This document shows positions 1,364-35,640 of a stretch of DNA of 64,000 nucleotides, piece by piece. The notes beneath the pieces were generated by a model. That model was not told where the DNA came from and made no database searches. It worked only from the letters and a program-made list of their open reading frames with translations. The translations under genes and the position numbers were made by a program. The number at the start of each line of letters is the position of its first letter. Position 1 is the stretch's first letter. This DNA comes from Patescibacteria group bacterium. GTDB taxonomy: Bacteria; Patescibacteriota; Microgenomatia; JAMCYU01. The DNA lies in NCBI GenBank assembly GCA_023473585.1, contig JAMCYU010000004.1:66033-130032 (forward strand). Reading direction: 5' to 3'.

Positions 1364-1657
1364 TTGGCCTTGGTGGAGAAAGGCACTCCTTGTCTTGTTT
1401 TTCTTCCTAACGATGAAACTTACGGCGCCAATTTGGCCGGAGCCATGGAAATGAAAGCCAGGGGCGGTTATGTCATCGGTATCTCGTATAAAAAACACGA
1501 ACTTTTCGATGATTTTCTGCCGGTTGATGACGCCAGTGAGGCAACGATTATTCCGAATATCATTACCGGTCAGACGCTTGCCTATTATCTAACCATGGAA
1601 AAAGGCCTTGATCCGGATAAACCCAGGAATTTGGCCAAAAGCGTCACCGTCAAATAA
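1364..1657 (+). pseudogene. glmS: 3' remnant of glmS (glutamine--fructose-6-phosphate aminotransferase C-terminal SIS region)
   Basis: 97 aa ending ...TLAYYLTMEKGLDPDKPRNLAKSVTVK, essentially identical in pattern to the GlmS C-terminus (..LQLLAYH..KG.DVDQPRNLAKSVTVE). No upstream in-frame start; stop 22 nt upstream in frame. Confidence 0.6.
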
Positions 1658-25602: not shown

Positions 25603-26004
25603 ATGAAGACATTATTAAGGTTATTTCTCTACAGTACCTTTGCTCTGTGGCTGACCCAGGTTGTTTCCGGCGGCTTAAAAATAGCCGGCGGTTTAGAAAC
25701 GCAAATTATTGCCGGCGCCGCCTTAGCCTTTATTTATCTTTTCGTTAAACCCATCTTAAAACTCTTTTTTTTACCCATCAATCTTCTTTCTTTAGGACTC
25801 TTATCTTGGCTTATTAACGTGGCGATTTTATATGTGTTAACCCTGATGGTTCCCCAAATTACCATCTCGGCTTGGCAATTTTCTGGTTTATCTTATCAGG
25901 GATTTTCCCTCCCTTCTTATTATTTCAGCCAGACGACTTCTTTTGTGGCCTCCGCTCTTATCTTAAGCTTTTTTATTAATTTTTTAGTTTGGCTTTCTAA
26001 ATGA
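25603..26004 (+). CDS. DUF360/YvlD-like membrane protein (phage holin superfamily IV-like)
   Basis: 133 aa, four TM segments with a YvlD-like pattern. Confidence 0.4.
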   Translation: MKTLLRLFLYSTFALWLTQVVSGGLKIAGGLETQIIAGAALAFIYLFVKPILKLFFLPINLLSLGLLSWLINVAILYVLTLMVPQITISAWQFSGLSYQGFSLPSYYFSQTTSFVASALILSFFINFLVWLSK

Positions 26005-27011
26005 ATAATCAACCCAAAATTGTCTGCATCGGCGGCGGCACGGGAACTTTTGTTGTCCTAAGGGGCCTTAAATATCATCCTTATAAGCTTTCGGCCATTG
26101 TCAGCATGAGTGATTCCGGAGGCAGCAATAAAAGAATCAGAGACGAATTTGGTTTGTTGCCGACTTCTGATTTACGTCAATGTCTGGTGGCTCTTTCCGA
26201 GGAAAATGGCGGGGTAGGACTTTTAAGAAAATTGTTCATGTATCGCTTTGAAAAAGGCCAGGGTATTTCCGGAATGACTTTTGGGAATCTTTTCATGGCG
26301 GCGCTTGCTGATATTTTAGGCTCCCAGGAAGAAGCCATCAAGCAAACCGGCAAAGTTTTGCGGATTCACGGCACGGTGATTCCGGTCACCTTTACCAAGA
26401 CGAATTTATACGCTGAATACGAAAATGGTCAAGTTCTTAAAGAAGAGCATCTGATTGATGAACCGCCCCATGATGGCACTTTAAAAATTACCGATATCTA
26501 CCTTAAACCCAAGGCCAAAGCCAACCCCGAAGCGTTAAATGTGCTCAGGGAAGCCGACCTTATTGTTTTAGGTCCGGGCGATCTTTATACCAGTCTTTTA
26601 CCTAATTTATTAATTGGCGAAATTTCGAACTCTCTTAAAAAAGCTCGGGGCAAAATTGTTTACGTCATGAATTTAATGACAAAATACGGTCAAACCTATA
26701 ATTACTCGGCCATGGATCATTTAAGAGTCATTGAGCAATTGATCGGCAAATCTGTCAATTATATTATTTTGAATAACGGGCGTTTAAACGAAACGACTTT
26801 AAAGGTCTACGCGAAATATCACGAATCTCCGGTTTTAAACGACTTAAGCGAAAATGACTATTTTAAAATCATTAAAGCTGACGTTGCCAATCGAGGCACT
26901 TTTAAGAAGTCTAGGGCCGATGCCTTGGTTCGCAGTTTAATTCGTCATGACAGTAAAAAATTAGCCCAAACGCTTGTTGATATTATTTCATCAGAAAGAG
27001 GTAACTTATGA
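26001..27011 (+). CDS. gluconeogenesis factor YvcK/CofD-like (UPF0052)
   Basis: N-terminus IVCIGGGTGTFVVLRGLK is the family signature. Confidence 0.65.
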   Translation: MNNQPKIVCIGGGTGTFVVLRGLKYHPYKLSAIVSMSDSGGSNKRIRDEFGLLPTSDLRQCLVALSEENGGVGLLRKLFMYRFEKGQGISGMTFGNLFMAALADILGSQEEAIKQTGKVLRIHGTVIPVTFTKTNLYAEYENGQVLKEEHLIDEPPHDGTLKITDIYLKPKAKANPEALNVLREADLIVLGPGDLYTSLLPNLLIGEISNSLKKARGKIVYVMNLMTKYGQTYNYSAMDHLRVIEQLIGKSVNYIILNNGRLNETTLKVYAKYHESPVLNDLSENDYFKIIKADVANRGTFKKSRADALVRSLIRHDSKKLAQTLVDIISSERGNL

Positions 27012-27223
27012 ATAACATCCTGTTAATTATCCAAATTATTGTCTCTGTCCTTTTAATTGCCGCCATTTTATTACAAAATAGGGGACAAGGACTCTCGGCA
27101 AGTTTTGGCGGCAGCGGCGAATTTTACCGTTCTAAAAGAGGCCTGGAAAAAATTCTTTTTTGGTTGACGGTTATTTTGGTTGGTCTCTTCCTAATAACTT
27201 CTCTGGTTAATCTCGTGCTTTAG
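27008..27223 (+). CDS. secG: preprotein translocase subunit SecG
   Basis: 71 aa, two TM segments, LLQNRGQGLSASFGG motif. Confidence 0.65.
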   Translation: MNNILLIIQIIVSVLLIAAILLQNRGQGLSASFGGSGEFYRSKRGLEKILFWLTVILVGLFLITSLVNLVL

Positions 27224-27232
27224 AATGAGAAT

Positions 27233-28573
27233 ATGAAGTTTTTTGTTCGTTATTTACGTTTGTTCTCTTGGTTTGTACGGGCTTTTGTTACTAAACACCG
27301 AAGTCTTATCTCTTTTAGTTTTATCGCCGGTTTCTTAATCTTTTTACTTTTTGTGGAACTTTATCCGATTGTCATCAAACCCTTGTTTCACCAAAAAACC
27401 AAAGTTATTGCCGTTATCGGTAATTATACCCCAACAACCCTTCCCTCTTATCTTCAAAATCTTATCAGTTTTGGTCTAACTTCCATTGATCAATCAGGCG
27501 AAGCAACTTCGTCAATTGCCTTAAATTGGGAAATAAAAGACGACGGCAAAACTTATCTTTTTAAAATTAAAAACGATTTATTTTGGCACGATAAAACAAA
27601 GTTTAAAGCTTCTGACATTAATTATAATCTTAAAGATGTCACCTTTGAGTTTATCACTCAAGATCTTCTGAAGATTAGCTTAAAGGAGCCTTTTTCTCCT
27701 TTACCAACCATTCTTTCCCGTCCGATTTTTAAACGCGGCTTAGTCGGTTTGGGCCCTTATAAGGTCACGAAAATAAAACTTAAAGGCGATACTTTGCAAA
27801 ATATGTCCTTAACCCCCTTAACCGCGGATTTTCCTCCGCTTGAGTTTAAGTTTTATTCTACGGAAGCGGCGGCGATAACGGCTTTTAAACTTGGCGAAGT
27901 TAATATCCTCGATCGAGTCAGCGACGTCAATGGTTTTAAAAATTGGCCGAATTTAAAGATAAGCTCACAAATTTATGAGAATTACAATATTATTCTTTTT
28001 TTCAATACCCGGCTGCCGTTACTCCAAAAAAGAGCCGTTCGCCAAGGTTTGGCTTACGCCGTTCCCTCTTTTTCGCAAGAAACCTCCAACAGTCCTCTTA
28101 ATCCTCATTCCTGGGCGTATAATCCGAATGTCAAAAATTATTCGCAAAATCAGGAACTGTCTAAAAGTTTATTGATAAAAGAGGGGATCGCCACGGCCTC
28201 GGCTAACCTGACCATCTCAACTTTTACTTCCTTTTTGCCTTACGCTCAAAAAATTGCCCAGTCCTGGGATTCCCTGGGCCTAAAAACCAATATCAGGGTC
28301 GAAAATTCCGTTCCGGGAAGCTTTGACGTTTTACTCATGAGTCAGGAGATTCCGCCTGACCCCGACCAGTATCACCTCTGGCATTCAACCCAAACCACGA
28401 ATATCACCGGTTTTGGCAGTCCCAAGATTGATAAACTTTTAGAAGACGGGAGAAAAACGACCGATAAGGAAAAAAGAACGCTAATTTATAAGGATTTTCA
28501 GCGTTACTTGCTTGAAGAAGCTCCCGCGGTTTTCCTCTTCCATCCCAAGCTCTACACCATTGAAAGAAGTTAG
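27233..28573 (+). CDS. ABC transporter substrate-binding protein family 5-like (membrane anchored)
   Basis: N-terminal TM anchor; C-terminal region similar to SBP_bac_5. Confidence 0.45.
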   Translation: MKFFVRYLRLFSWFVRAFVTKHRSLISFSFIAGFLIFLLFVELYPIVIKPLFHQKTKVIAVIGNYTPTTLPSYLQNLISFGLTSIDQSGEATSSIALNWEIKDDGKTYLFKIKNDLFWHDKTKFKASDINYNLKDVTFEFITQDLLKISLKEPFSPLPTILSRPIFKRGLVGLGPYKVTKIKLKGDTLQNMSLTPLTADFPPLEFKFYSTEAAAITAFKLGEVNILDRVSDVNGFKNWPNLKISSQIYENYNIILFFNTRLPLLQKRAVRQGLAYAVPSFSQETSNSPLNPHSWAYNPNVKNYSQNQELSKSLLIKEGIATASANLTISTFTSFLPYAQKIAQSWDSLGLKTNIRVENSVPGSFDVLLMSQEIPPDPDQYHLWHSTQTTNITGFGSPKIDKLLEDGRKTTDKEKRTLIYKDFQRYLLEEAPAVFLFHPKLYTIERS

Positions 28574-28584
28574 AAAAGAGCGGT

Positions 28585-28613
28585 TTGTGAGCAAAACGTC
28601 TTTCTGATATAAT
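28585..28613 (+). promoter_or_regulatory. sigma70-like promoter of tRNA cluster
   Basis: TTGTGA, 17 nt spacer, TATAAT; 14 nt upstream of tRNA-Leu. Confidence 0.4.
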
Positions 28614-28626
28614 TCTTTTTGCCTTT

Positions 28627-28713
28627 GGGCAAGTGGCGAAACTGGCAGACGCGCAGGCTTCAGGAGCCTGTTCCCTTTAACAAGGAATGGAGGTTCGAGT
28701 CCTCTCTTGCCCA
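28627..28713 (+). tRNA. tRNA-Leu (CAG)
   Basis: Class II cloverleaf: acceptor GGGCAAG/CUUGCCC, anticodon loop UUCAGGA, long variable arm, T-loop UUCGAGU. Confidence 0.8.
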
Positions 28714-28718
28714 CTTAA

Positions 28719-28805
28719 GCCGAGGTGGTGAAATCGGTAGACACGCAGCCTTGAGGAGGCTGTACCCTTAAACAAGGTGTGCAGGTTCAAATCCTGTCCT
28801 CGGCA
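28719..28805 (+). tRNA. tRNA-Leu (GAG)
   Basis: Acceptor GCCGAGG/CCUCGGC, anticodon loop UUGAGGA, long variable arm. Confidence 0.8.
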
Positions 28806-28888
28806 CAGCATAAGTGGGAGTTCGTTTACCCCGCTGATTGCGGAGCAATTTTGCGGGGAGTCTCCCCGAGAGCACTTAAAATAGAGAA

Positions 28889-29066
28889 TGACCGCTTAGC
28901 TCAACGGTGGAGCGCGACATTTACACCGCGCCTGCACTGGCCGGTTAGTTCAGTTGGTAGAACGCCTCGTTTACATCGAGGAAGTCGGAGGTTCGAGTCC
29001 TCCATCGGCCACAGTTTCGGCGGGCAGGTCGAAGAGGTTGGTGGTTCGAATCCACCAGCGGTCACC
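28889..29066 (+). other. two tRNA-half-like segments flanking tRNA-Val (5' half 28889-28938, 3' half 29012-29066 ending in encoded CCA)
   Basis: GACCGCU (5') and AGCGGUC-A-CCA (3') are perfectly complementary acceptor-like strands. The 5' piece has a canonical D-arm, the 3' piece a canonical T-arm GGUGGUUCGAAUCCACC. No canonical anticodon arm can be assembled. Confidence 0.3.
28939..29011 (+). tRNA. tRNA-Val (UAC)
   Basis: Acceptor GGCCGGU/AUCGGCC, anticodon loop UUUACAU, T-loop UUCGAGU. Confidence 0.8.
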
Positions 29067-29072
29067 AGAAGC

Positions 29073-29933
29073 TTATATTTTCGTTTTTTTCCATCGGCGG
29101 TAAAGAATAACTCCACCCAAAACCGGCACCCAGATAACCCCATAAACCATAATCCAAATTCCCTTTTCGGCCAAACCTCTTCCGGTATTGATTAAGGATC
29201 TGACGGCTAATTTAAAGACGACGGCCGGTCTAAAAGCCTGGCTTGGAGCGTAGGGAAGAGCCATTTCGTCTGAAGATAAATAAATCGTGATTTTTGATAA
29301 ACTGGCGGTTTGTTCCAAATATTTTTGCCTGCCTTTTAAAGCATCAATTTGATCCTGAAGACCAATCAGCTCCCGTTGAACCGTTAAGAGGTCCTGAACT
29401 TGTGCCGCCTTGTTCATAATTTCTTCAAATTTACTTTTGGTCGCTTCCAAAGTTTTTAAACGGGCCTCCAAATCAACATATTGGTCGGTTACGTCTGTTC
29501 CCATAACATTTTCTGAAGTAACCTTAACGGCAAGTTTTCGGTATTCGTCAATCGTCCCTTTAACTTTATCGGCGGGTATTCTTACCACAACTGTGGCAAA
29601 AGGCGCTTCTTCGGGTTGGCTAATAGTGCTTGAAACCATAAAACCGCCGTTCGTTTTGGCCAGATCGATGATTTTGTCAGCAACTTCCTTGACTTTTAAA
29701 ACGACCAAAGACATTGAGGTTTCTTCAACGATAATTCTTTTAGCCTGGTTCGTCGGCGCCGATTCTTGCTGAAAAGAAAGACGCGAAGGAAGGGGAGCGG
29801 AAGAAAAAAATTCGGAATAATTGGTTACCCTAGATAAACCGAAAGGAGAAACGCCAAAATAGGGCCGTAAGATAAAATAAACCAGGGCTATAAGAAGAAG
29901 GGAAGAGAGTTTGTGATTTTTAATCCAATCCAT
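29073..29933 (-). CDS. DUF4349-like membrane-anchored coiled-coil protein
   Basis: Start assigned to the internal Met (MDWIKNHK...) because the longer ORF runs into tRNA-Phe. N- and C-terminal TM segments with a central coiled coil. Confidence 0.45.
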   Translation of the reverse strand: MDWIKNHKLSSLLLIALVYFILRPYFGVSPFGLSRVTNYSEFFSSAPLPSRLSFQQESAPTNQAKRIIVEETSMSLVVLKVKEVADKIIDLAKTNGGFMVSSTISQPEEAPFATVVVRIPADKVKGTIDEYRKLAVKVTSENVMGTDVTDQYVDLEARLKTLEATKSKFEEIMNKAAQVQDLLTVQRELIGLQDQIDALKGRQKYLEQTASLSKITIYLSSDEMALPYAPSQAFRPAVVFKLAVRSLINTGRGLAEKGIWIMVYGVIWVPVLGGVILYRRWKKTKI

Positions 29934-29968
29934 AACTTCATGATAAAATTGAATAAAGTGTTTGTCAA

Positions 29969-29997
29969 GTAAACCCAAATTTGGTAGAATAAGTCGT
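29969..29997 (+). promoter_or_regulatory. sigma70-like promoter upstream of tRNA-Phe
   Basis: TTGTCA, 17 nt spacer, extended -10 TGgTAGAAT. Confidence 0.4.
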
Positions 29998-30023
29998 GTA
30001 CTTCCAAAACAAAGTTTGTACAT

Positions 30024-30096
30024 GCCGAGGTAGCCAAGGCGGTCACGGCGCGTGTCTGAAAAACATGAGATGACAGTTCGATTCTGTCCCTCGGCA
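30024..30096 (+). tRNA. tRNA-Phe (GAA)
   Basis: Acceptor GCCGAGG/CCUCGGC, anticodon loop CUGAAAA, T-loop UUCGAUU. Confidence 0.75.
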
Positions 30097-30162
30097 CTAG
30101 AAATTTACTCAGGAAACGTCTTTTGCGAAAATTATTTTTCGCAAGTAAATTTCTAGTGTGAA
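30094..30162 (+). repeat. ~65-nt palindromic hairpin element (paralog at 39277-39337)
   Basis: CACTAGAAATTTACT...AGTAAATTTCTAGTG outer 15-bp inverted repeat with a nested CTTTTGCGAAAA/TTTTTCGCAAG inverted repeat; begins at the 3' end of tRNA-Phe. Confidence 0.5.
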
Positions 30163-30213
30163 CACGTTTTAAAAGAAGATGTTTACACTGAAAAATCGTT
30201 TAGATTTTTTAGT

Positions 30214-30284
30214 GCGGGTGTGGTTTAATGGTAAAATAACTCCCTTCCAAGGAGTTGACGGCAGTTCGATTCTGCTCACCCGCT
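30214..30284 (+). tRNA. tRNA-Gly (UCC)
   Basis: Acceptor GCGGGUG/CACCCGC, anticodon loop CUUCCAA. Confidence 0.8.
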
Positions 30285-30349
30285 CAAGTCGTTGAGCGAG
30301 GCTCGCTAAAGGCGGCCCGCTCCCGAGTCAAACTCGGTTCGTAAAAGTT

Positions 30350-30420
30350 TTCGGGATCGTCTAGCGGTAGGACAGCAGCCTTTGGAGCTGCGAACCTAGG
30401 TTCGAATCCTAGTCCCGAAG
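30350..30420 (+). tRNA. tRNA-Gln (UUG)
   Basis: U1-A72 start as in bacterial tRNA-Gln, D-loop AGCGGUA, anticodon loop CUUUGGA. Confidence 0.7.
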
Positions 30421-30454
30421 CCGATTCGACTCGCGAAAGAATCATATTAATTAT

Positions 30455-30540
30455 GCCGGGGTGGCGGAACTGGCAGACGCGCAGGACTTAAAATCCTGTG
30501 ATGCTAACACATCGTGAGGGTTCGAGTCCCTCTCTCGGCA
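30455..30540 (+). tRNA. tRNA-Leu (UAA)
   Basis: Class II; anticodon loop CUUAAAA, long variable arm, T-loop UUCGAGU. Confidence 0.75.
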
Positions 30541-30598
30541 CAAAGGATGTTAATAATTATCACTTGCTAAATAGCGTGAGGTAATATACACTTAAGAC

Positions 30599-31024
30599 GT
30601 GAAAGACCTTAAGGAAATAAGAAGTGTTATACCGCTAATCATATGGTGGTGTGAAGGGACAAAACCCAGACGTGATAAGAGGTGGAAAAACGCAGTCCTT
30701 TGCCCAATAGAGGTTAGCAACACTGATCCAAAAATTATTAAAATATTTAGAGATTATCTTGTACAAGAATTGGGGGTTTCAGAAAAAGGTATAAAGGGTC
30801 AACTGCAAGTTCATGAAGGAGATAATAAAAGTGAACTTGAGATTTATTGGTCAAAAATAACCGATATTCCATTGAGTCAATTCAATAAAACTATCATAAG
30901 AAAAATCGGAAATAAACCTGGAAAGAGTAAAGGAACTTTCAAATTAAGATTTTACAATAAAAGAGTATATAAAAAACTAGAAAGCTCTTTAACTAAATTT
31001 TTGAAGCTCTTTAACGGAGTGTAG
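30599..31024 (+). CDS. hypothetical protein embedded in tRNA cluster
   Basis: 141 aa ORF, GTG start 8 nt after a TATACA -10. Its stop codon lies inside the 5' end of tRNA-Pro. No recognisable domain. Confidence 0.3.
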   Translation: MKDLKEIRSVIPLIIWWCEGTKPRRDKRWKNAVLCPIEVSNTDPKIIKIFRDYLVQELGVSEKGIKGQLQVHEGDNKSELEIYWSKITDIPLSQFNKTIIRKIGNKPGKSKGTFKLRFYNKRVYKKLESSLTKFLKLFNGV

Positions 31025-31091
31025 CGCAGTTGGCTAGCGCGCCTCGTTTGGGACGAGGAGGTCCCCGGTTCAAGTCCGGGCACTCCGACCA
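31015..31091 (+). tRNA. tRNA-Pro (UGG), CCA encoded
   Basis: C1-G72 pair typical of bacterial tRNA-Pro, anticodon loop UUUGGGA, 3' end ...CACUCCG-A-CCA. Confidence 0.8.
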
Positions 31092-31140
31092 ACTTAAAAG
31101 TGAGGGTTTGGTTCATAGCAGAACAATTCACTAGGGTTAC

Positions 31141-31212
31141 GCGGGAGTAGTTCAGCAGTAGAACGTTTCCTTGCCAAGGAAAAGGTCGCGGGTGCGAATC
31201 CCGTCTCCCGCT
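31141..31212 (+). tRNA. tRNA-Gly (GCC)
   Basis: Acceptor GCGGGAG/CUCCCGC, anticodon loop UUGCCAA. Confidence 0.8.
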
Positions 31213-31278
31213 CAAGCGCCTTTGGCGACTTGAGCGAGGCTCGCCTCGCCTGAAAGGCGGGCGGCCCGCTCTATATTT

Positions 31279-31530
31279 ATGTTTATTGTTTACGTCCTTC
31301 AAAGTCTCAAAGATAACAAGACATACGTTGGATATACCGACAATTTTGAGAGACGATTCAAACAGCATAATTCAGGGAAATCAAAATCTACAAAAAATCG
31401 AGCGCCATTTAAATTACTCTTCGAAGAAGAATTTGAAAATTCAGTTGAAGCGAAAAAACGAGAGTTGTGGTGGAAAAGCGGAATTGGAAGAAAGAAACTG
31501 AAGGAGTATTTTGATAAGATCAAGAAATGA
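31279..31530 (+). CDS. GIY-YIG nuclease family small protein (YhbQ/UPF0213-like)
   Basis: 83 aa; IVYVLQSLKDNKTYVGYTDNFERRFKQHN matches the GIY-YIG (GIY...YVG..R...H) pattern. Follows tRNA-Gly and a GC-rich hairpin. Confidence 0.65.
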   Translation: MFIVYVLQSLKDNKTYVGYTDNFERRFKQHNSGKSKSTKNRAPFKLLFEEEFENSVEAKKRELWWKSGIGRKKLKEYFDKIKK

Positions 31531-31853
31531 CAGAAAAGATATGTTTTAAGCGAGGGCTCTTTGGAGCGCTTCCCGGATATTTTTGCCGCCAAACCAACCT
31601 TTAAGATATAAAATTGTGTGTTTGTTCCGATGCCAGTCCTGAAGATAATATTTATCAATACGTCCACCCCTTTTTAAGAAAATAGCGATTAGTTCATCGA
31701 TAGAGGATTTTGTATTTATACCTTATTATAACACACCCAAAATTTAATTTCTCCGAGAGCTTGATAAGCTTCTTGTAACTTGATAAAATAGTTTTAATTG
31801 CCTCGAGCAGACGCGTTACAACGCGATTTGGTATAATCAAATCGCTAGTTTTT

Positions 31854-31927
31854 GCTCTCGTAGCTCAATTGGATAGAGCAGAGGGTTTCTAACCTTCAGG
31901 TTGCGTGTTCGAATCACGCCGAGAGCG
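31854..31927 (+). tRNA. tRNA-Arg (UCU)
   Basis: Acceptor GCUCUCG/CGAGAGC, anticodon loop UUUCUAA. Preceded by extended -10 TGgTATAAT embedded in the 8-bp inverted repeat GCGATTTG...CAAATCGC. Confidence 0.75.
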
Positions 31928-32047
31928 CAAAAAGAAGCGCGCGGTTGGGGGGTTCGCTTGCCCCGTAGACGACTTTAAGGAGTTCTTCGGGGAGTCCCTC
32001 TGGAGGCGCACGATAAGTTGGGAAAAGACAGGTGTTTTATCCCATAT

Positions 32048-32120
32048 GGTGGATGTAGCTCACCAGTAGAGCGCCCGCCTGTGAAGCGGGAGGAAGCGGG
32101 AGCATCACCCGTCATCCACC
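32048..32120 (+). tRNA. tRNA-His (GUG) with encoded G-1; atypical D- and T-loops
   Basis: 8-bp acceptor including G-1:C73 (His hallmark) and anticodon loop CUGUGAA. D-loop ACCAGUA lacks G18G19; T-loop AGCAUCA lacks the UUC motif. Confidence 0.5.
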
Positions 32121-32153
32121 CATAAAGACTTAGGCCGTTACGACGACATATAG

Positions 32154-32182
32154 TTGACATATTTCCTCCTAATTGCTATCAT
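32154..32182 (+). promoter_or_regulatory. sigma70-like promoter
   Basis: TTGACA, 17 nt spacer, TATCAT. Confidence 0.35.
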
Positions 32183-32193
32183 TCAAACACTTT

Positions 32194-32439
32194 ATGATAA
32201 TCAGATATGAGGGAAGAGAAGTTTTTCACGAGACAACCGTTGGCGCGAAAGGCGCTTTACTTGGCGCCTTAATGGGTGGACCAAGAACGGTTAGTTTAAG
32301 GCTTGTGCCTGACCGCGACGAACCCTTAAACGATACTGTCGTTGTTAGTGCCAGTTATGGCTCTTACGAGGTAAGGGGATCAGATATAAACACGAATTCT
32401 ACCTGCCTCAGAAATCACGTAAGGTGGTCTTGTTATTAA
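32194..32439 (+). CDS. hypothetical small glycine-zipper protein (uncertain; may be non-coding)
   Basis: 81 aa ORF 11 nt after the -10, no SD. GAKGALLGALMGG motif. Local GC higher than surroundings. Confidence 0.25.
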   Translation: MIIRYEGREVFHETTVGAKGALLGALMGGPRTVSLRLVPDRDEPLNDTVVVSASYGSYEVRGSDINTNSTCLRNHVRWSCY

Positions 32440-32527
32440 GTTGTAACCCGCCTCTCTTCAAACCTTCGAAATAACATTCTCCCTGCAATAAGCAGAGCTT
32501 TTACTTCGTAATAAATTGCAGGGTTTC

Positions 32528-32610
32528 AACCCTAAAGGAGAACGTTTTCTTTGCTTCAATTCATCCTCGCAATAAATTGTGAGGTATTCTTGAAGCGCCG
32601 AATAAAAAAT
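32528..32610 (+). ncRNA. candidate structured RNA element (paralog at 47527-47619)
   Basis: CCCUAAAGG..GUUUUCUUUG-GCUUCAA-UUCAUCC-[hairpin CCUCGCAA/UUGUGAGG]-UAUUC-UUGAAGC-GCCGAAUAAAAAA. The second copy has a different but self-complementary inner hairpin and a compensatory outer-stem change. Confidence 0.35.
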
Positions 32611-32689
32611 CCTGTTTAAAGGCTATCTTTTAAGTTGGCGGTTGGGTTATAATAAATTCGTAGATCGTTTATAAGGCTTCTTCCACGAA

Positions 32690-33808
32690 TTAAGCGATGA
32701 AATATCCCCTTGTAAAAAGAGCCACCAACAGAAACTGCAGAATTAAGAAAACAATAATTGTCAGGTAAAATTGCCATTTTGTTTTTGTCAAAAGCCCCAT
32801 GGCGATAAAGGCCGGAAAAAGATGAAGAATATACCTGGGCATGCTTTGCAAGGTTCCGGTAAAAGTGGGAATCAGTAGCGAGACGATCATCCAGACCCCA
32901 TAGGAAACTCTGACCTTTTTAAGAACATAAAAACCTAAGAAGAAGTAAAAAAAAGTCGAACCTAATTCTAAAATGGCAGTAAAATAAGTAATGTTTTTAG
33001 AAGCGAAGATAATTATCTTTAAGTATCTAAAAAGAACCTGAAAGGGAGAAATAAAATTTGCCTGTCCCCAATGAATCATTGATTTTTGAAAAAGAAAGAA
33101 ATCGCCGAAGTTTATTTGCAAATATAACCCGTAGAGAATCATCCCTAAAGGAATCAGAAAAATAAAATAAACTTTTCTTTTGAAAAAATTTTCAAGTAAA
33201 TTGCCATGTTTGTCTTTATTTTGCCAATACCATTCCACCAGTAGGGCTACAATCAGGGAAAGACCCACAAGTCTGGCTAGTCCCGCCATTAAGCCAAAAA
33301 TACCCGCCAACGGCCACCGACTTTTCCTGGCACAGTAAAAACTCAGGGTGGCAAAAAGAAAATAGAGCGATTCGGTGTAAACCGCGCCATAAAAAAACGA
33401 TACCGGAAAAACCAAAAGCAAGATGAGTGTTCGCCAAGCGATTTTTTGATCAAAGTCGAAAAGAATAATTTTGTAAAAAACGAAAAGAGAAAGAAAAAAA
33501 ACAAAATTAGTTATCAGCAATCCGGAGGTGAGAAAAGAAAAAGACGTTAGTTTATGAAGAATTGAAACAAGAAATGGCAAGAGCGGAAAATAGGCAAAAT
33601 TCGGATAATGGTAACCATCACGGGCAATATTAAGATAATTCGCTCCGTCAAAATTAGCCCAAATTCCCAAGAAATAGTTTAAGGAATTAAGATAGTTCAA
33701 AGAAAACCCATGAGTCGGATTAAAACGAAGAATAAAAACCGCCAGCAGGGAAAAAAAGAAGATAAGAATCTTCCAGCCGATAAAAAAAGAGGCTATTCGT
33801 TTAAACAT
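32690..33808 (-). CDS. GT-C fold integral membrane glycosyltransferase (ArnT/PMT/DUF2029-like)
   Basis: 372 aa, >=10 TM segments. WANFDGANYLNIARDGY resembles the conserved periplasmic loop of GT-C mannosyl/arabinosyl transferases. Confidence 0.45.
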   Translation of the reverse strand: MFKRIASFFIGWKILIFFFSLLAVFILRFNPTHGFSLNYLNSLNYFLGIWANFDGANYLNIARDGYHYPNFAYFPLLPFLVSILHKLTSFSFLTSGLLITNFVFFLSLFVFYKIILFDFDQKIAWRTLILLLVFPVSFFYGAVYTESLYFLFATLSFYCARKSRWPLAGIFGLMAGLARLVGLSLIVALLVEWYWQNKDKHGNLLENFFKRKVYFIFLIPLGMILYGLYLQINFGDFFLFQKSMIHWGQANFISPFQVLFRYLKIIIFASKNITYFTAILELGSTFFYFFLGFYVLKKVRVSYGVWMIVSLLIPTFTGTLQSMPRYILHLFPAFIAMGLLTKTKWQFYLTIIVFLILQFLLVALFTRGYFIA

Positions 33809-33850
33809 TATTTAATAGTGTATAATGGCAGCAACAAATAAGTTTCTAAA

Positions 33851-34537
33851 ATGAAAAAACTTTCTAGTCTTTCGGTTGTCTATCCGGTTTTTAATGACAG
33901 TTACTCTCTTTCTCAATTGATTAAGAAAACCGTTGGGTTTCTGCCTTTTGTCGCCAACGAGTACGAAATCATTATAGTCAATGACGGCAGTGATGACAAG
34001 ACAACCAAAATCTTATTAAGCGAATTTGAGGAGAAAATTCCGTTTTTAAGCGTAATTAACCATAAGAAAAACTTGGGTTATGGAGCCGCTCTCGCAACGG
34101 GATTTGCAAAAGCGAAGTCTGATTTTATTTTTTATACCGACAGTGATGGTCAATATGATCCTCTGGAACTTAAGAAATTAGTCGCCAAATTTAATGATAA
34201 GGTCGATTTAGTTACCGGTTTTAAGCTTAATCGAGCCGACACATGGTTCAGAAGAATAATCGGATTTTTATATAATCATTTCGTTAAAATTCTCTTCAAT
34301 CTTAATGTCCGTGATGTTGATTGCGACTTTAGACTTTTCCGCCGAAGTCTTCTTCAGGGGCTGAACTTTAAAATCGCCAGCGGCGCCTTTGACGTTGATT
34401 TTATGAAAAAGCTGCAACAAAAGAAGGTTCGTTTCCGAGAAGTCCCCGTGCATCATTATAAAAGACAATACGGAAAATCGCAATTTTTTAGTTTCTTAAA
34501 TATTGCTAGAAGTTTGTTTGATTTAACAAAAATATGA
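33851..34537 (+). CDS. family 2 glycosyltransferase (polyprenyl-phosphate sugar synthase, ArnC/DPM1-like)
   Basis: GT2 motifs IIIVNDGSDD...YTDSDGQYD. Confidence 0.7.
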   Translation: MKKLSSLSVVYPVFNDSYSLSQLIKKTVGFLPFVANEYEIIIVNDGSDDKTTKILLSEFEEKIPFLSVINHKKNLGYGAALATGFAKAKSDFIFYTDSDGQYDPLELKKLVAKFNDKVDLVTGFKLNRADTWFRRIIGFLYNHFVKILFNLNVRDVDCDFRLFRRSLLQGLNFKIASGAFDVDFMKKLQQKKVRFREVPVHHYKRQYGKSQFFSFLNIARSLFDLTKI

Positions 34538-35640
34538 AACCCAAAATAAAAATACCCATTGTCAACTTGCAAAAAAATTATCAAGGTCTTCAAAAAGAAA
34601 TAAACCAAACCGTTCATAAAATTTTCCGGAAGGGTAATTTTATTCTCGGAGAAAATGTTTATTTTTTTGAAAAGGAATTCAGTCAATACCTGGGGGTAAA
34701 ATACGCCATCGGTGTGGCTTCGGGAACGGACGCTTTAATCTTAGCCTTCAAATCACTCGGAATCCGCTCAGAAGATGAGGTTATTATCCCTGCCAACAGT
34801 TACCCGACCGCTTTTGCGGTTGCTTCGGTAGCCACGCCAAAACTTGTCGATATTGATCCGCGGACTTTTAATATGGATGTTTCAAAGATAGAAAAAGCCA
34901 TCACCGTTAGGACCCGCGCCATTGTGCCCGTTCATCTTTTTGGTTTGGCCGCGGAAATGAAATCAATTCTCAAAGTGGCCAAAAAACACCATCTTTTTGT
35001 CATCGAAGACGTCGCCCAAGCCCACGGAGCCAGTTATGAGGGTAAAAAATTAGGCACTTTAGGAGATTTGGGTTGTTTCAGTTTTTATCCCACCAAAAAT
35101 TTAGGTTGTTGCGGCGACGGGGGAATGGTGGTCACCAATAATAAAAAATTGGCCGCATTAATTCGGCAGTTAAGAACCTATGGAGAAAAGAAACGTTATC
35201 AAAGCCTAAGGCCGGGAGTAAATAGTCGACTTGATGAACTCCAGGCTGGGATATTGCGCGTTAAACTTAAAAGACTCGATTCTTATAATCAATTACGACA
35301 AAAAGTTGCTTCCCATTATTTCTCCTGTCTTAAAAACGAGAAGATTATTCTTCCTCCCGAAAAATCTGACGGCAGCCACGTTTACCATCTTTTTACGATA
35401 CGCGCCAGGGAAAGAGACAGACTCAAAAGATATCTGAAAAAACATGGGGTCGAAACAAACATTCATTATCCATTACCTGTCCATCTTGTTAAAGCTTTTT
35501 CCTCTTTAAAATATAAAAAGGGAGATTTCCCGCAGGCCGAAAAGGCGTGCAAAGAAATACTTTCCCTTCCTTGCTATCCAGAACTCACCACCAGCCAAAT
35601 AACAAATATTTGCAATCTTATTAAATCTTCATTAAAATGA
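34534..35640 (+). CDS. DegT/DnrJ/EryC1/StrS family PLP-dependent sugar aminotransferase (ArnB-like)
   Basis: 368 aa, family-typical N-terminus and PLP-lysine region. ATGA overlap with the GT2 gene. Confidence 0.8.
   Translation: MKPKIKIPIVNLQKNYQGLQKEINQTVHKIFRKGNFILGENVYFFEKEFSQYLGVKYAIGVASGTDALILAFKSLGIRSEDEVIIPANSYPTAFAVASVATPKLVDIDPRTFNMDVSKIEKAITVRTRAIVPVHLFGLAAEMKSILKVAKKHHLFVIEDVAQAHGASYEGKKLGTLGDLGCFSFYPTKNLGCCGDGGMVVTNNKKLAALIRQLRTYGEKKRYQSLRPGVNSRLDELQAGILRVKLKRLDSYNQLRQKVASHYFSCLKNEKIILPPEKSDGSHVYHLFTIRARERDRLKRYLKKHGVETNIHYPLPVHLVKAFSSLKYKKGDFPQAEKACKEILSLPCYPELTTSQITNICNLIKSSLK

What the first reader, a model, noticed from the sequence alone, without database searches (positions are those of the whole stretch)
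28585..32122. tRNA gene cluster (13 tRNAs on + strand) interleaved with protein genes and unusual tRNA-like fragments
Order of the cluster: Leu(CAG), Leu(GAG), [half], Val(UAC), [half], DUF4349 gene (minus), Phe, Gly(UCC), Gln, Leu(UAA), orphan ORF, Pro, Gly(GCC), GIY-YIG ORF, Arg(UCU), His.

Around tRNA-Val:
- a 5' tRNA-half-like segment (28889-28938): acceptor strand GACCGCU, canonical D-arm, anticodon-loop-like UUUACAC
- a 3' half (29012-29066): canonical T-arm, acceptor strand AGCGGUC perfectly complementary to the 5' piece, encoded CCA

The two pieces flank an intact tRNA-Val. The sequences adjoining it (..CACUG / CAGU..) can also base-pair. This could be a disrupted tRNA (Val-like) gene into which a functional tRNA-Val was inserted, a split/intron-containing tRNA, or a tRNA-derived structured RNA.
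Basis: seen in the sequence. Interest (0 to 1): 0.55.

Follow-up and report, generated by a model that had tools for sequence, protein, structure and literature searches.

The report
tRNA-Val gene nested inside broken tRNA-Val
A working valine tRNA gene sits inside the two ends of a second, broken valine tRNA gene, and the same nested layout recurs in distant relatives, so this tRNA locus is repeatedly rebuilt by recombination and is probably not a spliced or split tRNA.

Summary
An intact tRNA-Val(UAC) (28939-29011) is flanked by a 5' tRNA piece (28890-28930: acceptor strand, D arm, UUUACAC loop) and a 3' piece (29035-29067: variable loop, T arm, perfectly complementary acceptor strand, ACCA). 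Joining the flanks gives ARAGORN tRNA calls in 456/864 arbitrary joins, against 0/864 for each of the other 14 tRNAs in the window.

Gene finders, including intron mode, call only the inner gene. No single splice point restores an anticodon arm.

At the syntenic locus in other Microgenomates-like contigs the nested layout recurs in L035, L036 and L042. L002 and L039 carry a 3' piece. The inner gene is 95-100% identical across them. The outer pieces belong to at least three acceptor types. They carry different D-loop insertions and different anticodon-arm defects, are mismatched in L036, and L042 lacks the 3' piece.

Best reading (about 0.6): the inner gene is the working tRNA. The pieces are the ends of a disrupted resident tRNA-Val gene, now transcribed as leader and trailer. 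Recombination within tRNA-like sequence spread and reshuffled the nested allele.

A spliced or split tRNA is unlikely. A scaffold role, or a homing-like mobile tRNA cassette, is not excluded.

The parts
28585..28613 (+). Promoter-like site (TTGTGA, 17 nt, TATAAT with TG) upstream of Leu(CAG). It probably drives one transcript covering Leu, Leu, the 5' piece, Val and the 3' piece.
   Evidence: No promoter-like site lies directly upstream of the 5' piece in the window. In L002, L005, L007, L036 and L042 a TATAAT-type promoter sits 17-20 nt before the first tRNA-like base.
28807..28889 (+). Structured spacer or leader between Leu(GAG) and the 5' piece.
   Evidence: It differs from L001 at only 2 positions, up to ...GAGAGCAC. 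Its 3' part (GAGUCUCCCCGAGAGCAC...) aligns with the leader that precedes the outer-type gene in L035 and L041. Fold z = -2.2.
28890..28930 (+). 5' piece of the outer (disrupted) tRNA-Val: acceptor 5' strand GACCGCU, U8 A9, D arm, G26, a defective anticodon stem, the UUUACAC loop, and CGCG.
   Evidence: Sequence; joining test. Homologous 5' pieces occupy the same position in L035, L036 and L042.
28931..28938 (+). Leader CCUGCACU directly before the inner gene. Together with the preceding UUUACAC-CGCG it is shared with L042 (17/19 identical).
28939..29011 (+). Inner tRNA-Val(UAC), the working gene.
   Evidence: ARAGORN. Rfam tRNA 70.4 bits, the best in the cluster. It is 95-96% identical to the inner genes of L035, L036 and L042.
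29012..29034 (+). Trailer CAG plus the hairpin UUUCGGC-GGGCAG-GUCGAAG. This is the best-conserved flanking segment.
   Evidence: It is 83-91% identical to L002, L035 and L036, against 63-69% for the T arm and acceptor that follow. There is only one copy in the window.
29035..29067 (+). 3' piece of the outer tRNA-Val: variable loop AGGUU, T arm GGUGG-UUCGAAU-CCACC, acceptor 3' strand AGCGGUC, A73, and an encoded CCA.
   Evidence: Sequence. Covariance-model search places it closest to tRNA-Val 3' parts. Homologues are present in L002, L035, L036 and L039.
29073..30023 (-). Convergent DUF4349 gene, used as the synteny anchor. It is context only, not part of the element.

Best explanation
**Proposed explanation**
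- The inner tRNA-Val(UAC) is the functional gene.
- It lies inside the remains of a second tRNA-Val(UAC) gene, the 'outer' or resident gene. That gene was broken at the DNA level near the junction of its anticodon arm and variable loop.
- The inserted cassette consists of a short leader, the inner tRNA, and a trailer hairpin.
- The whole unit is transcribed from the upstream tRNA promoter.
- RNase P and the 3'-end machinery (an RNase Z-type nuclease or exonucleases, then the CCA-adding enzyme, because the inner gene does not encode CCA) release the inner tRNA.
- The outer pieces are the 5' leader and the 3' trailer. They do not yield a decoding tRNA.
- The nested allele is shared by several distantly related lineages in mosaic form. 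It has therefore been spread and reshuffled by homologous recombination whose crossovers fall inside the tRNA-like sequences.
- Under this model, the outermost strands keep the recipient's own, mutually complementary sequence, while the segments next to the inner gene are donor-like.

**Shown**
- The anatomy of the locus.
- Its recurrence in relatives.
- The mosaicism of the outer pieces.
- The defects in the outer genes.

**Inferred**
- The processing route.
- The direction of the evolutionary events.
- Recombination as the means of spread.
For: 1. Only the inner gene is called, and it is the best-scoring tRNA of the cluster.
2. Both pieces are derived from tRNA-Val.
3. Uninterrupted genes with outer-type acceptor strands exist.
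   - L002 carries GGUCGCU...AGCGACC.
   - L041 starts with GGCCACU and a normal D loop. Its 27-31 sequence, CUUCG, pairs perfectly with the CGAAG of the trailer hairpin that precedes the 3' piece.
4. The outer gene is damaged differently in every lineage.
   - Window: the anticodon stem has no complementary partner.
   - L035: a 31-nt D-loop insert plus a 54-nt insert, and the 3' strand of the stem is missing.
   - L036: the same D-loop insert, positions 27-31 deleted, loop mutated, and acceptor strands mismatched.
   - L042: a different D-loop insert of about 45 nt and no 3' piece.
   - Sources.
5. The pieces are mosaic.
   - The leader and acceptor strand of L035 match L041, but from the D loop onward L035 matches L036.
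   - L036 joins a GGUCGCU-type 5' piece to a GGAC-type 3' piece.
   - L040 is a chimeric single gene with only 3 of 7 acceptor pairs.
6. Segments next to the inner gene are 83-91% identical between the window and distant lineages. The distal T arm and acceptor are only 63-69% identical. That is the reverse of what constraint on a working tRNA would give, and it is what co-conversion around an insertion would give.
7. L042 shares the downstream trailer of L039. It therefore appears to have lost the hairpin and 3' piece by deletion between tRNA 3' ends, which suggests the 3' piece is dispensable.
8. L001, the closest relative found (88% amino-acid identity in DUF4349), has a plain tRNA-Val of a different sequence type at this locus, while its Leu(CAG) gene differs from the window's at a single base. 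This locus specifically turns over.
Against: - The pieces are conserved far above silent sites of the adjacent gene. Four-fold-site identity is 0.31-0.55 between the more distant lineages. In contrast, the 3' pieces of L002 and L035 are 92% identical, and the D arm plus insert is 49/51 identical between L035 and L036.
- In two lineages the outer acceptor strands pair 7/7 through two compensatory double changes: window GACCGCU/AGCGGUC, and L035 GGCCACU/AGUGGCC.
- T-stem pairing in the 3' piece is also kept through compensatory changes.
- These patterns would also be expected if selection maintains an outer tRNA-like fold.
- The mechanism that placed a tRNA inside a tRNA is not identified.
- Only seven lineages carrying any piece were sampled (window, L002, L035, L036, L039, L041, L042). 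No expression data are available.
Confidence: 0.6

Rival explanations
1. Leader-trailer scaffold. The outer pieces are retained by selection. They fold around the inner pre-tRNA into a tRNA-like shell (acceptor helix plus the D/T elbow). The shell gives RNase P and 3'-end enzymes extra cleavage signals that cut the Val unit out of the Leu-Leu-Val transcript, or it protects the precursor.
For: - The outer helix forms in the minimum-free-energy folds of the window (z = -2.6) and of L035 (z = -4.3).
- Acceptor strands pair 7/7 with two compensatory changes between the window and L035.
- T-stem pairing is kept in all four 3' pieces.
- The pieces are conserved far above silent sites.
- D stems and U8 A9 are intact in all four 5' pieces.
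Against: - L036 has non-complementary outer strands.
- L042 has no 3' piece and L002 has no 5' piece.
- L001, L005 and L007 do without any pieces.
- T loops of the 3' pieces in L002, L035 and L036 have lost the UUC motif.
- Large, different D-loop inserts would disturb an elbow.
- Complementarity can simply be inherited from an intact resident gene.
Confidence: 0.15
2. Interrupted functional tRNA. The outer gene is a real tRNA-Val whose intervening sequence contains another tRNA. Excision of the inner tRNA, followed by ligation or non-covalent association of the halves, yields a second working tRNA.
For: - The acceptor, D and T arms are intact, A73 and CCA are present, and the 5' piece carries a UAC loop.
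- Many artificial joins are called tRNA.
- Patescibacteria are rich in tRNA introns, all of them group I (PMC13011429).
Against: - ARAGORN intron modes fail to call it.
- No group I or other ribozyme matches, and the insert is only about 105 nt.
- No join restores a 5-bp stem with a 7-nt loop, and the called anticodon changes with the arbitrary join point.
- The outer anticodon arms are defective in all four lineages.
- D-loop inserts of 31-45 nt would also have to be removed.
- The outer strands are mismatched in L036 and the 3' piece is absent in L042.
Confidence: 0.05
3. Integration scars. The pieces are tRNA fragments displaced by tyrosine-integrase elements that targeted tRNA-Val. The elements were later deleted, leaving the fragments next to the regenerated gene.
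For: - Integration into tRNA genes leaves a regenerated gene and a displaced fragment (PMC4383910).
- Different genes are inserted on either side of tRNA-Val in L001, L039, L005 and L035, so the locus is an insertion hot spot.
Against: - Pfam-scanned neighbours and called genes around the locus (window about 26000-35600; L001/L002) show no integrase family.
- The 3' piece lies 3 nt from the inner gene and is not a repeat of its 3' part (65% identity over 26 nt, family D5).
- A 5' fragment upstream of a complete gene is not what integration produces.
- The trailer-hairpin loop (GGGCAG) is unrelated to the anticodon loop, which would be the crossover core.
Confidence: 0.08
4. Chance resemblance or assembly artefact.
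For: Metagenome assemblies can join strains at shared sequence.
Against: - The joining test gives 0/864 in 14 controls against 456/864 here.
- The same architecture appears in independent assemblies from different sources (Logan SRR22387830, JGI 3300069939, ENA ERZ27247832).
- Stretches shared between alleles are about 17 nt (e.g. the T arm shared by L002 and L007), and I judge that too short to mislead an assembler (inference).
Confidence: 0.02

Closest known systems
Displaced tRNA gene fragments at genomic-island integration sites (Islander database, PMC4383910)
   Same: A complete, working tRNA gene lies next to a non-functional fragment of a tRNA gene of the same identity, and the locus is a hot spot for gene insertion.
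   Different: - No integrase or island is present.
- There are fragments on both sides, nested rather than tandem.
- The incoming DNA carries a whole tRNA instead of a 3' part.
- The fragment is not a repeat of the working gene.
[quoted passage not shown]
   Same: Same phylum. A tRNA gene is interrupted in or near the anticodon arm and is missed by standard tRNA finders.
   Different: - The intervening sequence here is about 105 nt.
- It has no ribozyme match.
- It contains a tRNA.
- The interrupted gene cannot be restored by any single splice.
Archaeal split, tri-split and intron-containing tRNAs (Nanoarchaeum, Caldivirga; from my own knowledge, not checked here)
   Same: tRNA 5' and 3' parts are encoded separately and have complementary acceptor strands.
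   Different: - This organism is a bacterium.
- The pieces are adjacent and co-oriented around another tRNA.
- No bulge-helix-bulge junction or conserved splice point was found.
- The outer anticodon arms are defective.
Free-standing GIY-YIG homing endonuclease SegB in the phage T4 tRNA cluster (PMC2330249; also PMC13096335)
   Same: tRNA gene clusters carry small GIY-YIG genes, and a tRNA region can be inherited preferentially with co-conversion of its flanks. The mosaic gradient seen here resembles co-conversion.
   Different: - No cleavage activity or target is known for the 83-aa GIY-YIG ORF at 31279-31530.
- That ORF lies 2.2 kb from the nested gene.
- It has only the catalytic domain.
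Engineered 'tRNA scaffold' for RNA expression (Ponchon and Dardel; from my own knowledge)
   Same: A tRNA body with acceptor, D and T arms carries a foreign structured RNA in place of its anticodon arm.
   Different: That system is man-made. Here the cargo is itself a tRNA that RNase P would cut out, and the shell is incomplete in several lineages.

Membership tests
Canonical bacterial tRNA gene (inner Val) | Cloverleaf scoring above the Rfam tRNA gathering threshold, with a 7-nt anticodon loop. | tested here: met
   70.4 bits against a gathering score of 29; ARAGORN calls Val(UAC).
Canonical bacterial tRNA gene (outer pieces taken together) | A contiguous cloverleaf, or a cloverleaf restored by removing one defined insert. 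| tested here: not met
   Rfam reports nothing on the pieces even at E up to 10. ARAGORN intron modes call nothing. The anticodon assigned to artificial joins depends on the arbitrary join point.
tRNA with a group I intron | An intervening sequence that matches a group I ribozyme model and is at least about 200 nt long. | tested here: not met
   No group I match in 28400-32400 or in L035, L036, L040, L041 or L042 at E up to 1-10. The insert is about 105 nt.
Archaeal-type intron or split tRNA | A conserved exon-intron junction that gives a 5-bp anticodon stem after removal. | tested here: not met
   The junctions differ among the window, L035, L036 and L042. The outer 27-31 and 39-43 segments do not pair consistently.
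Archaeal-type intron or split tRNA | Presence of a tRNA splicing endonuclease and ligase. | not tested
   Only a few ORFs of the window were scanned. The whole genome is not available.
Integrase-generated attL/attR tRNA duplication | An integrase gene and an island between the regenerated gene and the displaced fragment. | tested here: not met
   The fragment lies 3 nt from the gene. No integrase family is seen among neighbours scanned or called around the locus.
Integrase-generated attL/attR tRNA duplication | The fragment is a direct repeat of the 3' part of the regenerated gene. | tested here: not met
   Only 65% identity over 26 nt (family D5). The hairpin loop is unrelated to the anticodon loop.
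tmRNA (one-piece or two-piece) | A tRNA-Ala-like acceptor with G3:U70, a tag reading frame, and detection by ARAGORN. | tested here: not met
   ARAGORN finds no tmRNA. The pair at 3:70 is C-G.
Homing element (endonuclease-driven) | A site-specific nuclease that cleaves the uninterrupted allele. | not testable with these tools
   Only a catalytic-domain GIY-YIG ORF is present in the cluster. A mosaic or co-conversion-like pattern is seen.

The most novel reading that the evidence does not exclude
The inner tRNA-Val, with its short leader and trailer hairpin, may be a mobile cassette that 'homes' into resident tRNA-Val(UAC) genes. It breaks the resident gene near the anticodon arm and replaces its function with its own tRNA. 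It then spreads between Microgenomates lineages by recombination, with co-conversion of the neighbouring tRNA sequence. Possible drivers are a nuclease such as the small GIY-YIG proteins found in these tRNA clusters, or selection for a tRNA-Val variant that escapes a tRNA-targeting toxin. That would be a self-compensating selfish tRNA gene, a kind of element not described so far.
Probability: 0.2. Interest if true: 0.8.

Novelty: new variant of a known kind. Interest (0 to 1): 0.5.

Why it matters
- **Annotation.** tRNA finders see only the inner gene. The flanking pieces look deceptively like a split or intron-containing tRNA and could be over-interpreted.
- **Evolution.** The tRNA-Val(UAC) locus of these reduced-genome bacteria carries three families of acceptor-stem types (GGAYYYG 'plain', GRYCRCU 'outer', GGYCGRU 'inner'). 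It also carries nested, chimeric and even broken genes, while neighbouring tRNAs stay nearly invariant. This points to strong, locus-specific recombination or conflict acting on one tRNA.
- **If the cassette is mobile.** It would be a new way for a gene to invade its own paralogue while paying for the damage it causes.
- **If the shell is functional.** It would be a natural counterpart of the engineered tRNA scaffold.

Tried and rejected
- **Hairpin pattern scans of genome contigs and metagenome contigs.** They returned only chance hits in GC-rich coding DNA, plus the contig already known (L027 = L003).
- **Viral and phage searches.** Nothing beyond generic phage tRNAs. The pattern was also mis-specified.
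- **Protein search with the 56-aa ORF called over the L035 5' piece.** It found only itself. The in-frame peptide LAQFRPEDDQPL shared with L036 is most likely a by-product of the conserved RNA-like insert.
- **ARAGORN intron and overlap modes at default and relaxed thresholds.** No outer gene was called in the window. Relaxed calls in the relatives are inconsistent.
- **Looking for one outer anticodon stem.** The registers CGAC/GUCG (window) and UUGCG/CGAAG (L035, L002) are not shared between lineages.
- **Bulge-helix-bulge-like pairing between the leader and the trailer.** It is not conserved.
- **tmRNA, permuted tRNA and group I intron readings.** All rejected; see the membership tests.
- **Relatives P0012, P0019 and P0006 (L009, L037, L039).** They lacked the synteny or were cut at the contig end.

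Full report
**What is in the window**

ARAGORN finds 11 tRNA genes on the + strand between 28627 and 32121: Leu-CAG, Leu-GAG, Val-UAC, Phe, Gly-UCC, Gln, Leu-UAA, Pro, Gly-GCC, Arg-UCU and His. Rfam confirms the same 11 and nothing else tRNA-like, even at E up to 10.

Around tRNA-Val(UAC) (28939-29011) the sequence reads as follows:
- GACCGCU-UA-GCUC-AACGGUG-GAGC-G-CGACA-UUUACAC-CGCG-CCUGCACU
- [inner Val]
- CAG-UUUCGGC-GGGCAG-GUCGAAG-AGGUU-GGUGG-UUCGAAU-CCACC-AGCGGUC-A-CCA

The 5' piece has an acceptor strand, a D arm and a UAC-type loop. The 3' piece has a variable loop, a canonical T arm, a 7/7 complementary acceptor strand, A73 and CCA. The minimum-free-energy fold of 28880-29075 closes the outer acceptor helix around an intact inner cloverleaf (z = -2.6).

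**Is it more than chance?**

I deleted the inner gene and joined the flanks at 864 arbitrary pairs of positions. ARAGORN called a tRNA in 456 of them. The same procedure on the flanks of each of the other 14 tRNAs in the window gave 0 of 864 every time.

A covariance model built from the 3' pieces finds tRNA-Val 3' parts as its next-best matches (32-40 bits). Other tRNAs score 25 bits or less. There is no second copy of the piece in the 64-kb window. The pieces are therefore genuine tRNA-Val-derived sequence.

**The pieces are not a clean split tRNA**

The 5' piece already contains an anticodon-arm-like region, and the trailer has its own hairpin ahead of the variable loop. There are thus two hairpins where one anticodon arm should be.
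- No join restores a 5-bp stem with a 7-nt loop, and the anticodon ARAGORN assigns changes with the arbitrary join point.
- ARAGORN intron modes call only the inner gene.
- No group I intron or any other RNA family matches the region.

**Organism and synteny**

Homologues of the neighbouring genes are labelled Patescibacteria or Microgenomates. I used the convergent DUF4349 gene (29073-30023) and, in relatives, a zinc-finger gene upstream of tRNA-Val as anchors. With these I fetched the syntenic locus from other lineages. These lineages are deeply diverged:

| Comparison | Four-fold-site identity in DUF4349 |
|---|---|
| Between the more distant lineages | 0.31-0.55 |
| Window vs its closest relative found, L001 | 0.75 |

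**What the relatives show**

| Locus | State at the tRNA-Val position |
|---|---|
| L001, L005, L007 | A single plain tRNA-Val with a GGAC/GGAU-type acceptor. No pieces. |
| L035 | Nested. 5' piece GGCCACU-UA-GCUC-AGUU[31-nt two-hairpin insert]GGUUA-GAGC-G-UUGCG-[54-nt insert]-UUUACAUC. Then the inner Val, CAG and the hairpin. Then AUGUC, a T arm and AGUGGCC. Outer strands pair 7/7. |
| L036 | Nested, with the same D-loop insert. Positions 27-31 are deleted and the loop is mutated. The 5' strand GGUCGCU faces a GGAC-type 3' strand CAAGUCC, so the strands do not pair. |
| L042 | 5' piece of the GGAUCCG type with a different D-loop insert of about 45 nt. The junction UUUACAC-CCG-CCUUCACU is 17/19 identical to the window's. 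Then the inner Val. No hairpin and no 3' piece. |
| L002/L003 | An intact GGUCGCU-type tRNA-Val followed by the hairpin and an AGUGGCC 3' piece. No 5' piece. |
| L039 | The same 3' piece, at a contig end. |
| L041 | The L035 leader, then GGCCACU with a normal D loop and 27-31 = CUUCG. The contig ends there. CUUCG is the exact complement of the CGAAG of the trailer hairpin. |
| L040 | A single chimeric gene with a GGUCGCU-type body and a CGGAUCC 3' strand. Only 3 of 7 acceptor pairs form. Rfam gives 47 bits, and default ARAGORN does not call it. |

The inner gene is 73/73 identical between L035 and L036, and 69-70/73 identical to the window's.

**Interpretation**

The inner gene is the conserved, working tRNA. 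The outer pieces belong to at least three acceptor types: GACCGCU, GGCCACU/GGUCGCU, and GGAUCCG/GGAC. Genes with two of these acceptor types also occur uninterrupted, so the outer gene was once an ordinary tRNA-Val.

In every nested lineage the outer gene is crippled in a different way: in the anticodon stem, by D-loop inserts, by mismatched strands, or by loss of a piece. That is how a pseudogene behaves, not an interrupted but functional gene.

L042 shares the downstream trailer CCACAAUU(U)AAAAGGUUG and the downstream gene with L039. It therefore seems to have lost the hairpin and the 3' piece by deletion between the two tRNA 3' ends. This argues that the 3' piece is dispensable.

**Why the pieces are nevertheless well conserved**

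- The 3' pieces of L002 and L035 are 92% identical.
- The D arm plus insert is 49/51 identical between L035 and L036.
- The window's 3' piece is 69-77% identical to the others. All three figures stand against near-saturated silent sites.
- The window and L035 each have a perfect outer helix, and the two helices differ by two compensatory pairs.

Two explanations fit these facts. One is selection on an outer fold. The other is spread of the nested allele by recombination into different resident genes, so that the outermost strands remain those of the recipient and are therefore still complementary.

The second is favoured by the mosaic structure:
- The L035 5' piece is L041-like up to the D loop and L036-like beyond it.
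- L036 and L040 are chimeras.

It is also favoured by the identity gradient. Segments next to the inner gene are 83-91% identical between the window and distant lineages. The T arm and acceptor are only 63-69% identical, although in a working tRNA they would be the most constrained parts.

The spacer upstream of the window's 5' piece also aligns with the L035/L041 leader. L001 shares that spacer up to ...GAGAGCAC and then diverges completely. Breakpoints therefore cluster at this gene.

**How it most likely works**

The promoter-like site at 28585-28613 would drive one transcript covering Leu, Leu, the 5' piece, Val and the 3' piece. The next tRNA, Phe, has its own promoter-like site at 29962-29990. 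RNase P and the 3'-end enzymes would release the inner tRNA, and CCA would have to be added because it is not encoded. The pieces would be the leader and the trailer. These processing steps are inferred from general bacterial tRNA biology. They were not tested here.

**Rivals**

| Reading | Estimate | Main point |
|---|---|---|
| Functional tRNA-like shell (processing or protection) | about 0.15 | Fits the conservation and the outer pairing, but is contradicted by L036, L042, L002 and the plain loci |
| Spliced or split tRNA | about 0.05 | No defined junction, and the outer anticodon arms are defective |
| Integrase scars | about 0.08 | No integrase, no island, no repeat relationship, and a 5' fragment is unexpected (PMC4383910) |
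| Chance or assembly artefact | about 0.02 | Excluded by the controls and by recurrence in independent assemblies |

**Known and new**

Full-text searches found group I introns in Patescibacteria tRNAs (PMC13011429) but nothing describing a tRNA gene nested within a tRNA gene. The closest established phenomena are:
- displaced tRNA fragments at island integration sites (PMC4383910);
- homing of the phage T4 tRNA region by the GIY-YIG enzyme SegB (PMC2330249).

A catalytic-domain-only GIY-YIG ORF lies in this cluster (31279-31530), and similar ORFs lie in the clusters of L001 and L005. Nothing links them to the nested gene.

I rate this as a new variant of a known kind, namely tRNA gene disruption or replacement that leaves fragments, with moderate interest. 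The most novel reading not excluded is a self-compensating, homing-like tRNA cassette (probability about 0.2).

**Limits**

- Only seven lineages carry any piece.
- There are no expression data.
- The direction of the evolutionary events is inferred.

Noticed in passing
window 28807-28875 and 31929-32010: Two related structured spacers follow Leu(GAG) and Arg(UCU). Both end like a tRNA 3' end (GGGGAGUC-YCYCY, then 7 nt, then AC). The second also has a T-arm-like hairpin, GGGGG-UUCGCUU-GCCCC. The first differs from L001 at 2 positions. They may be older tRNA remnants.
   Followed up: partly
window 30286-30340 and 31214-31272: GC-rich hairpin elements sharing UGAGCGAGGCUCGC...GGCGGCCCGCUC follow both tRNA-Gly genes (fold z = -3.7 and -4.5). 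This is a repeat family of unknown role in an AT-rich genome.
   Followed up: partly
window 31279-31530 (+); L001 5646-5906 (-); L005 2194-2481 (-): Small GIY-YIG ORFs (83-95 aa, catalytic domain only) sit at different positions inside the tRNA clusters of three lineages. They have weak matches to homing-endonuclease families.
   Followed up: partly
window 30599-31024 (+): A 141-aa ORF between Leu(UAA) and Pro has no Pfam or NCBIfam family and only a weak PHROG hit of unknown function.
   Followed up: partly
L035 2709-2754 (-), L036 1285-1330 (-), L042 about 1601-1648 (+): Hairpin-forming inserts lie in the D loop of the 5' pieces. A 31-nt insert with two hairpins is shared by L035 and L036 (1 loop change and 1 change from G-U to G-C). 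An unrelated insert of about 45 nt is in L042. L035 also has a 54-nt hairpin insert before the anticodon loop. No Rfam match, origin unknown.
   Followed up: partly
L040 3029-3101 (+): The only tRNA-Val at this locus is a chimera with 3 of 7 acceptor pairs (GGUCGCU against CGGAUCC). Default ARAGORN does not call it, and Rfam gives 47 bits against about 70 for the intact genes. It is probably a broken gene produced by recombination within the shared T arm.
   Followed up: partly
L035 2573-2646 (-), L036 1205-1278 (-): The inner tRNA-Val in these lineages has the T loop UCCGAGU (C at position 55) instead of UUCGAGU as in the window and L042. The 3' pieces of L002, L035 and L036 also read UCC.
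   Followed up: no
window 32049-32121 (+): By my reading of the sequence, tRNA-His has an unusual T arm (CGGG-AGCAUCA-CCCG) lacking the UUC motif. It has the lowest Rfam score of the cluster (51 bits).
   Followed up: no
window 30097-30156 (+): A 13-bp perfect inverted repeat (CUAGAAAUUUACU / AGUAAAUUUCUAG) encloses a second hairpin directly after tRNA-Phe. It accounts for the weak miRNA-family matches in Rfam.
   Followed up: no
L035 2637-2807 (-): A 56-aa ORF was called over the 5' piece on the tRNA strand. The peptide LAQFRPEDDQPL is also in frame behind an ATG in L036. It has no homologues in the protein collection, so it is probably a coincidence of the conserved RNA-like insert.
   Followed up: yes
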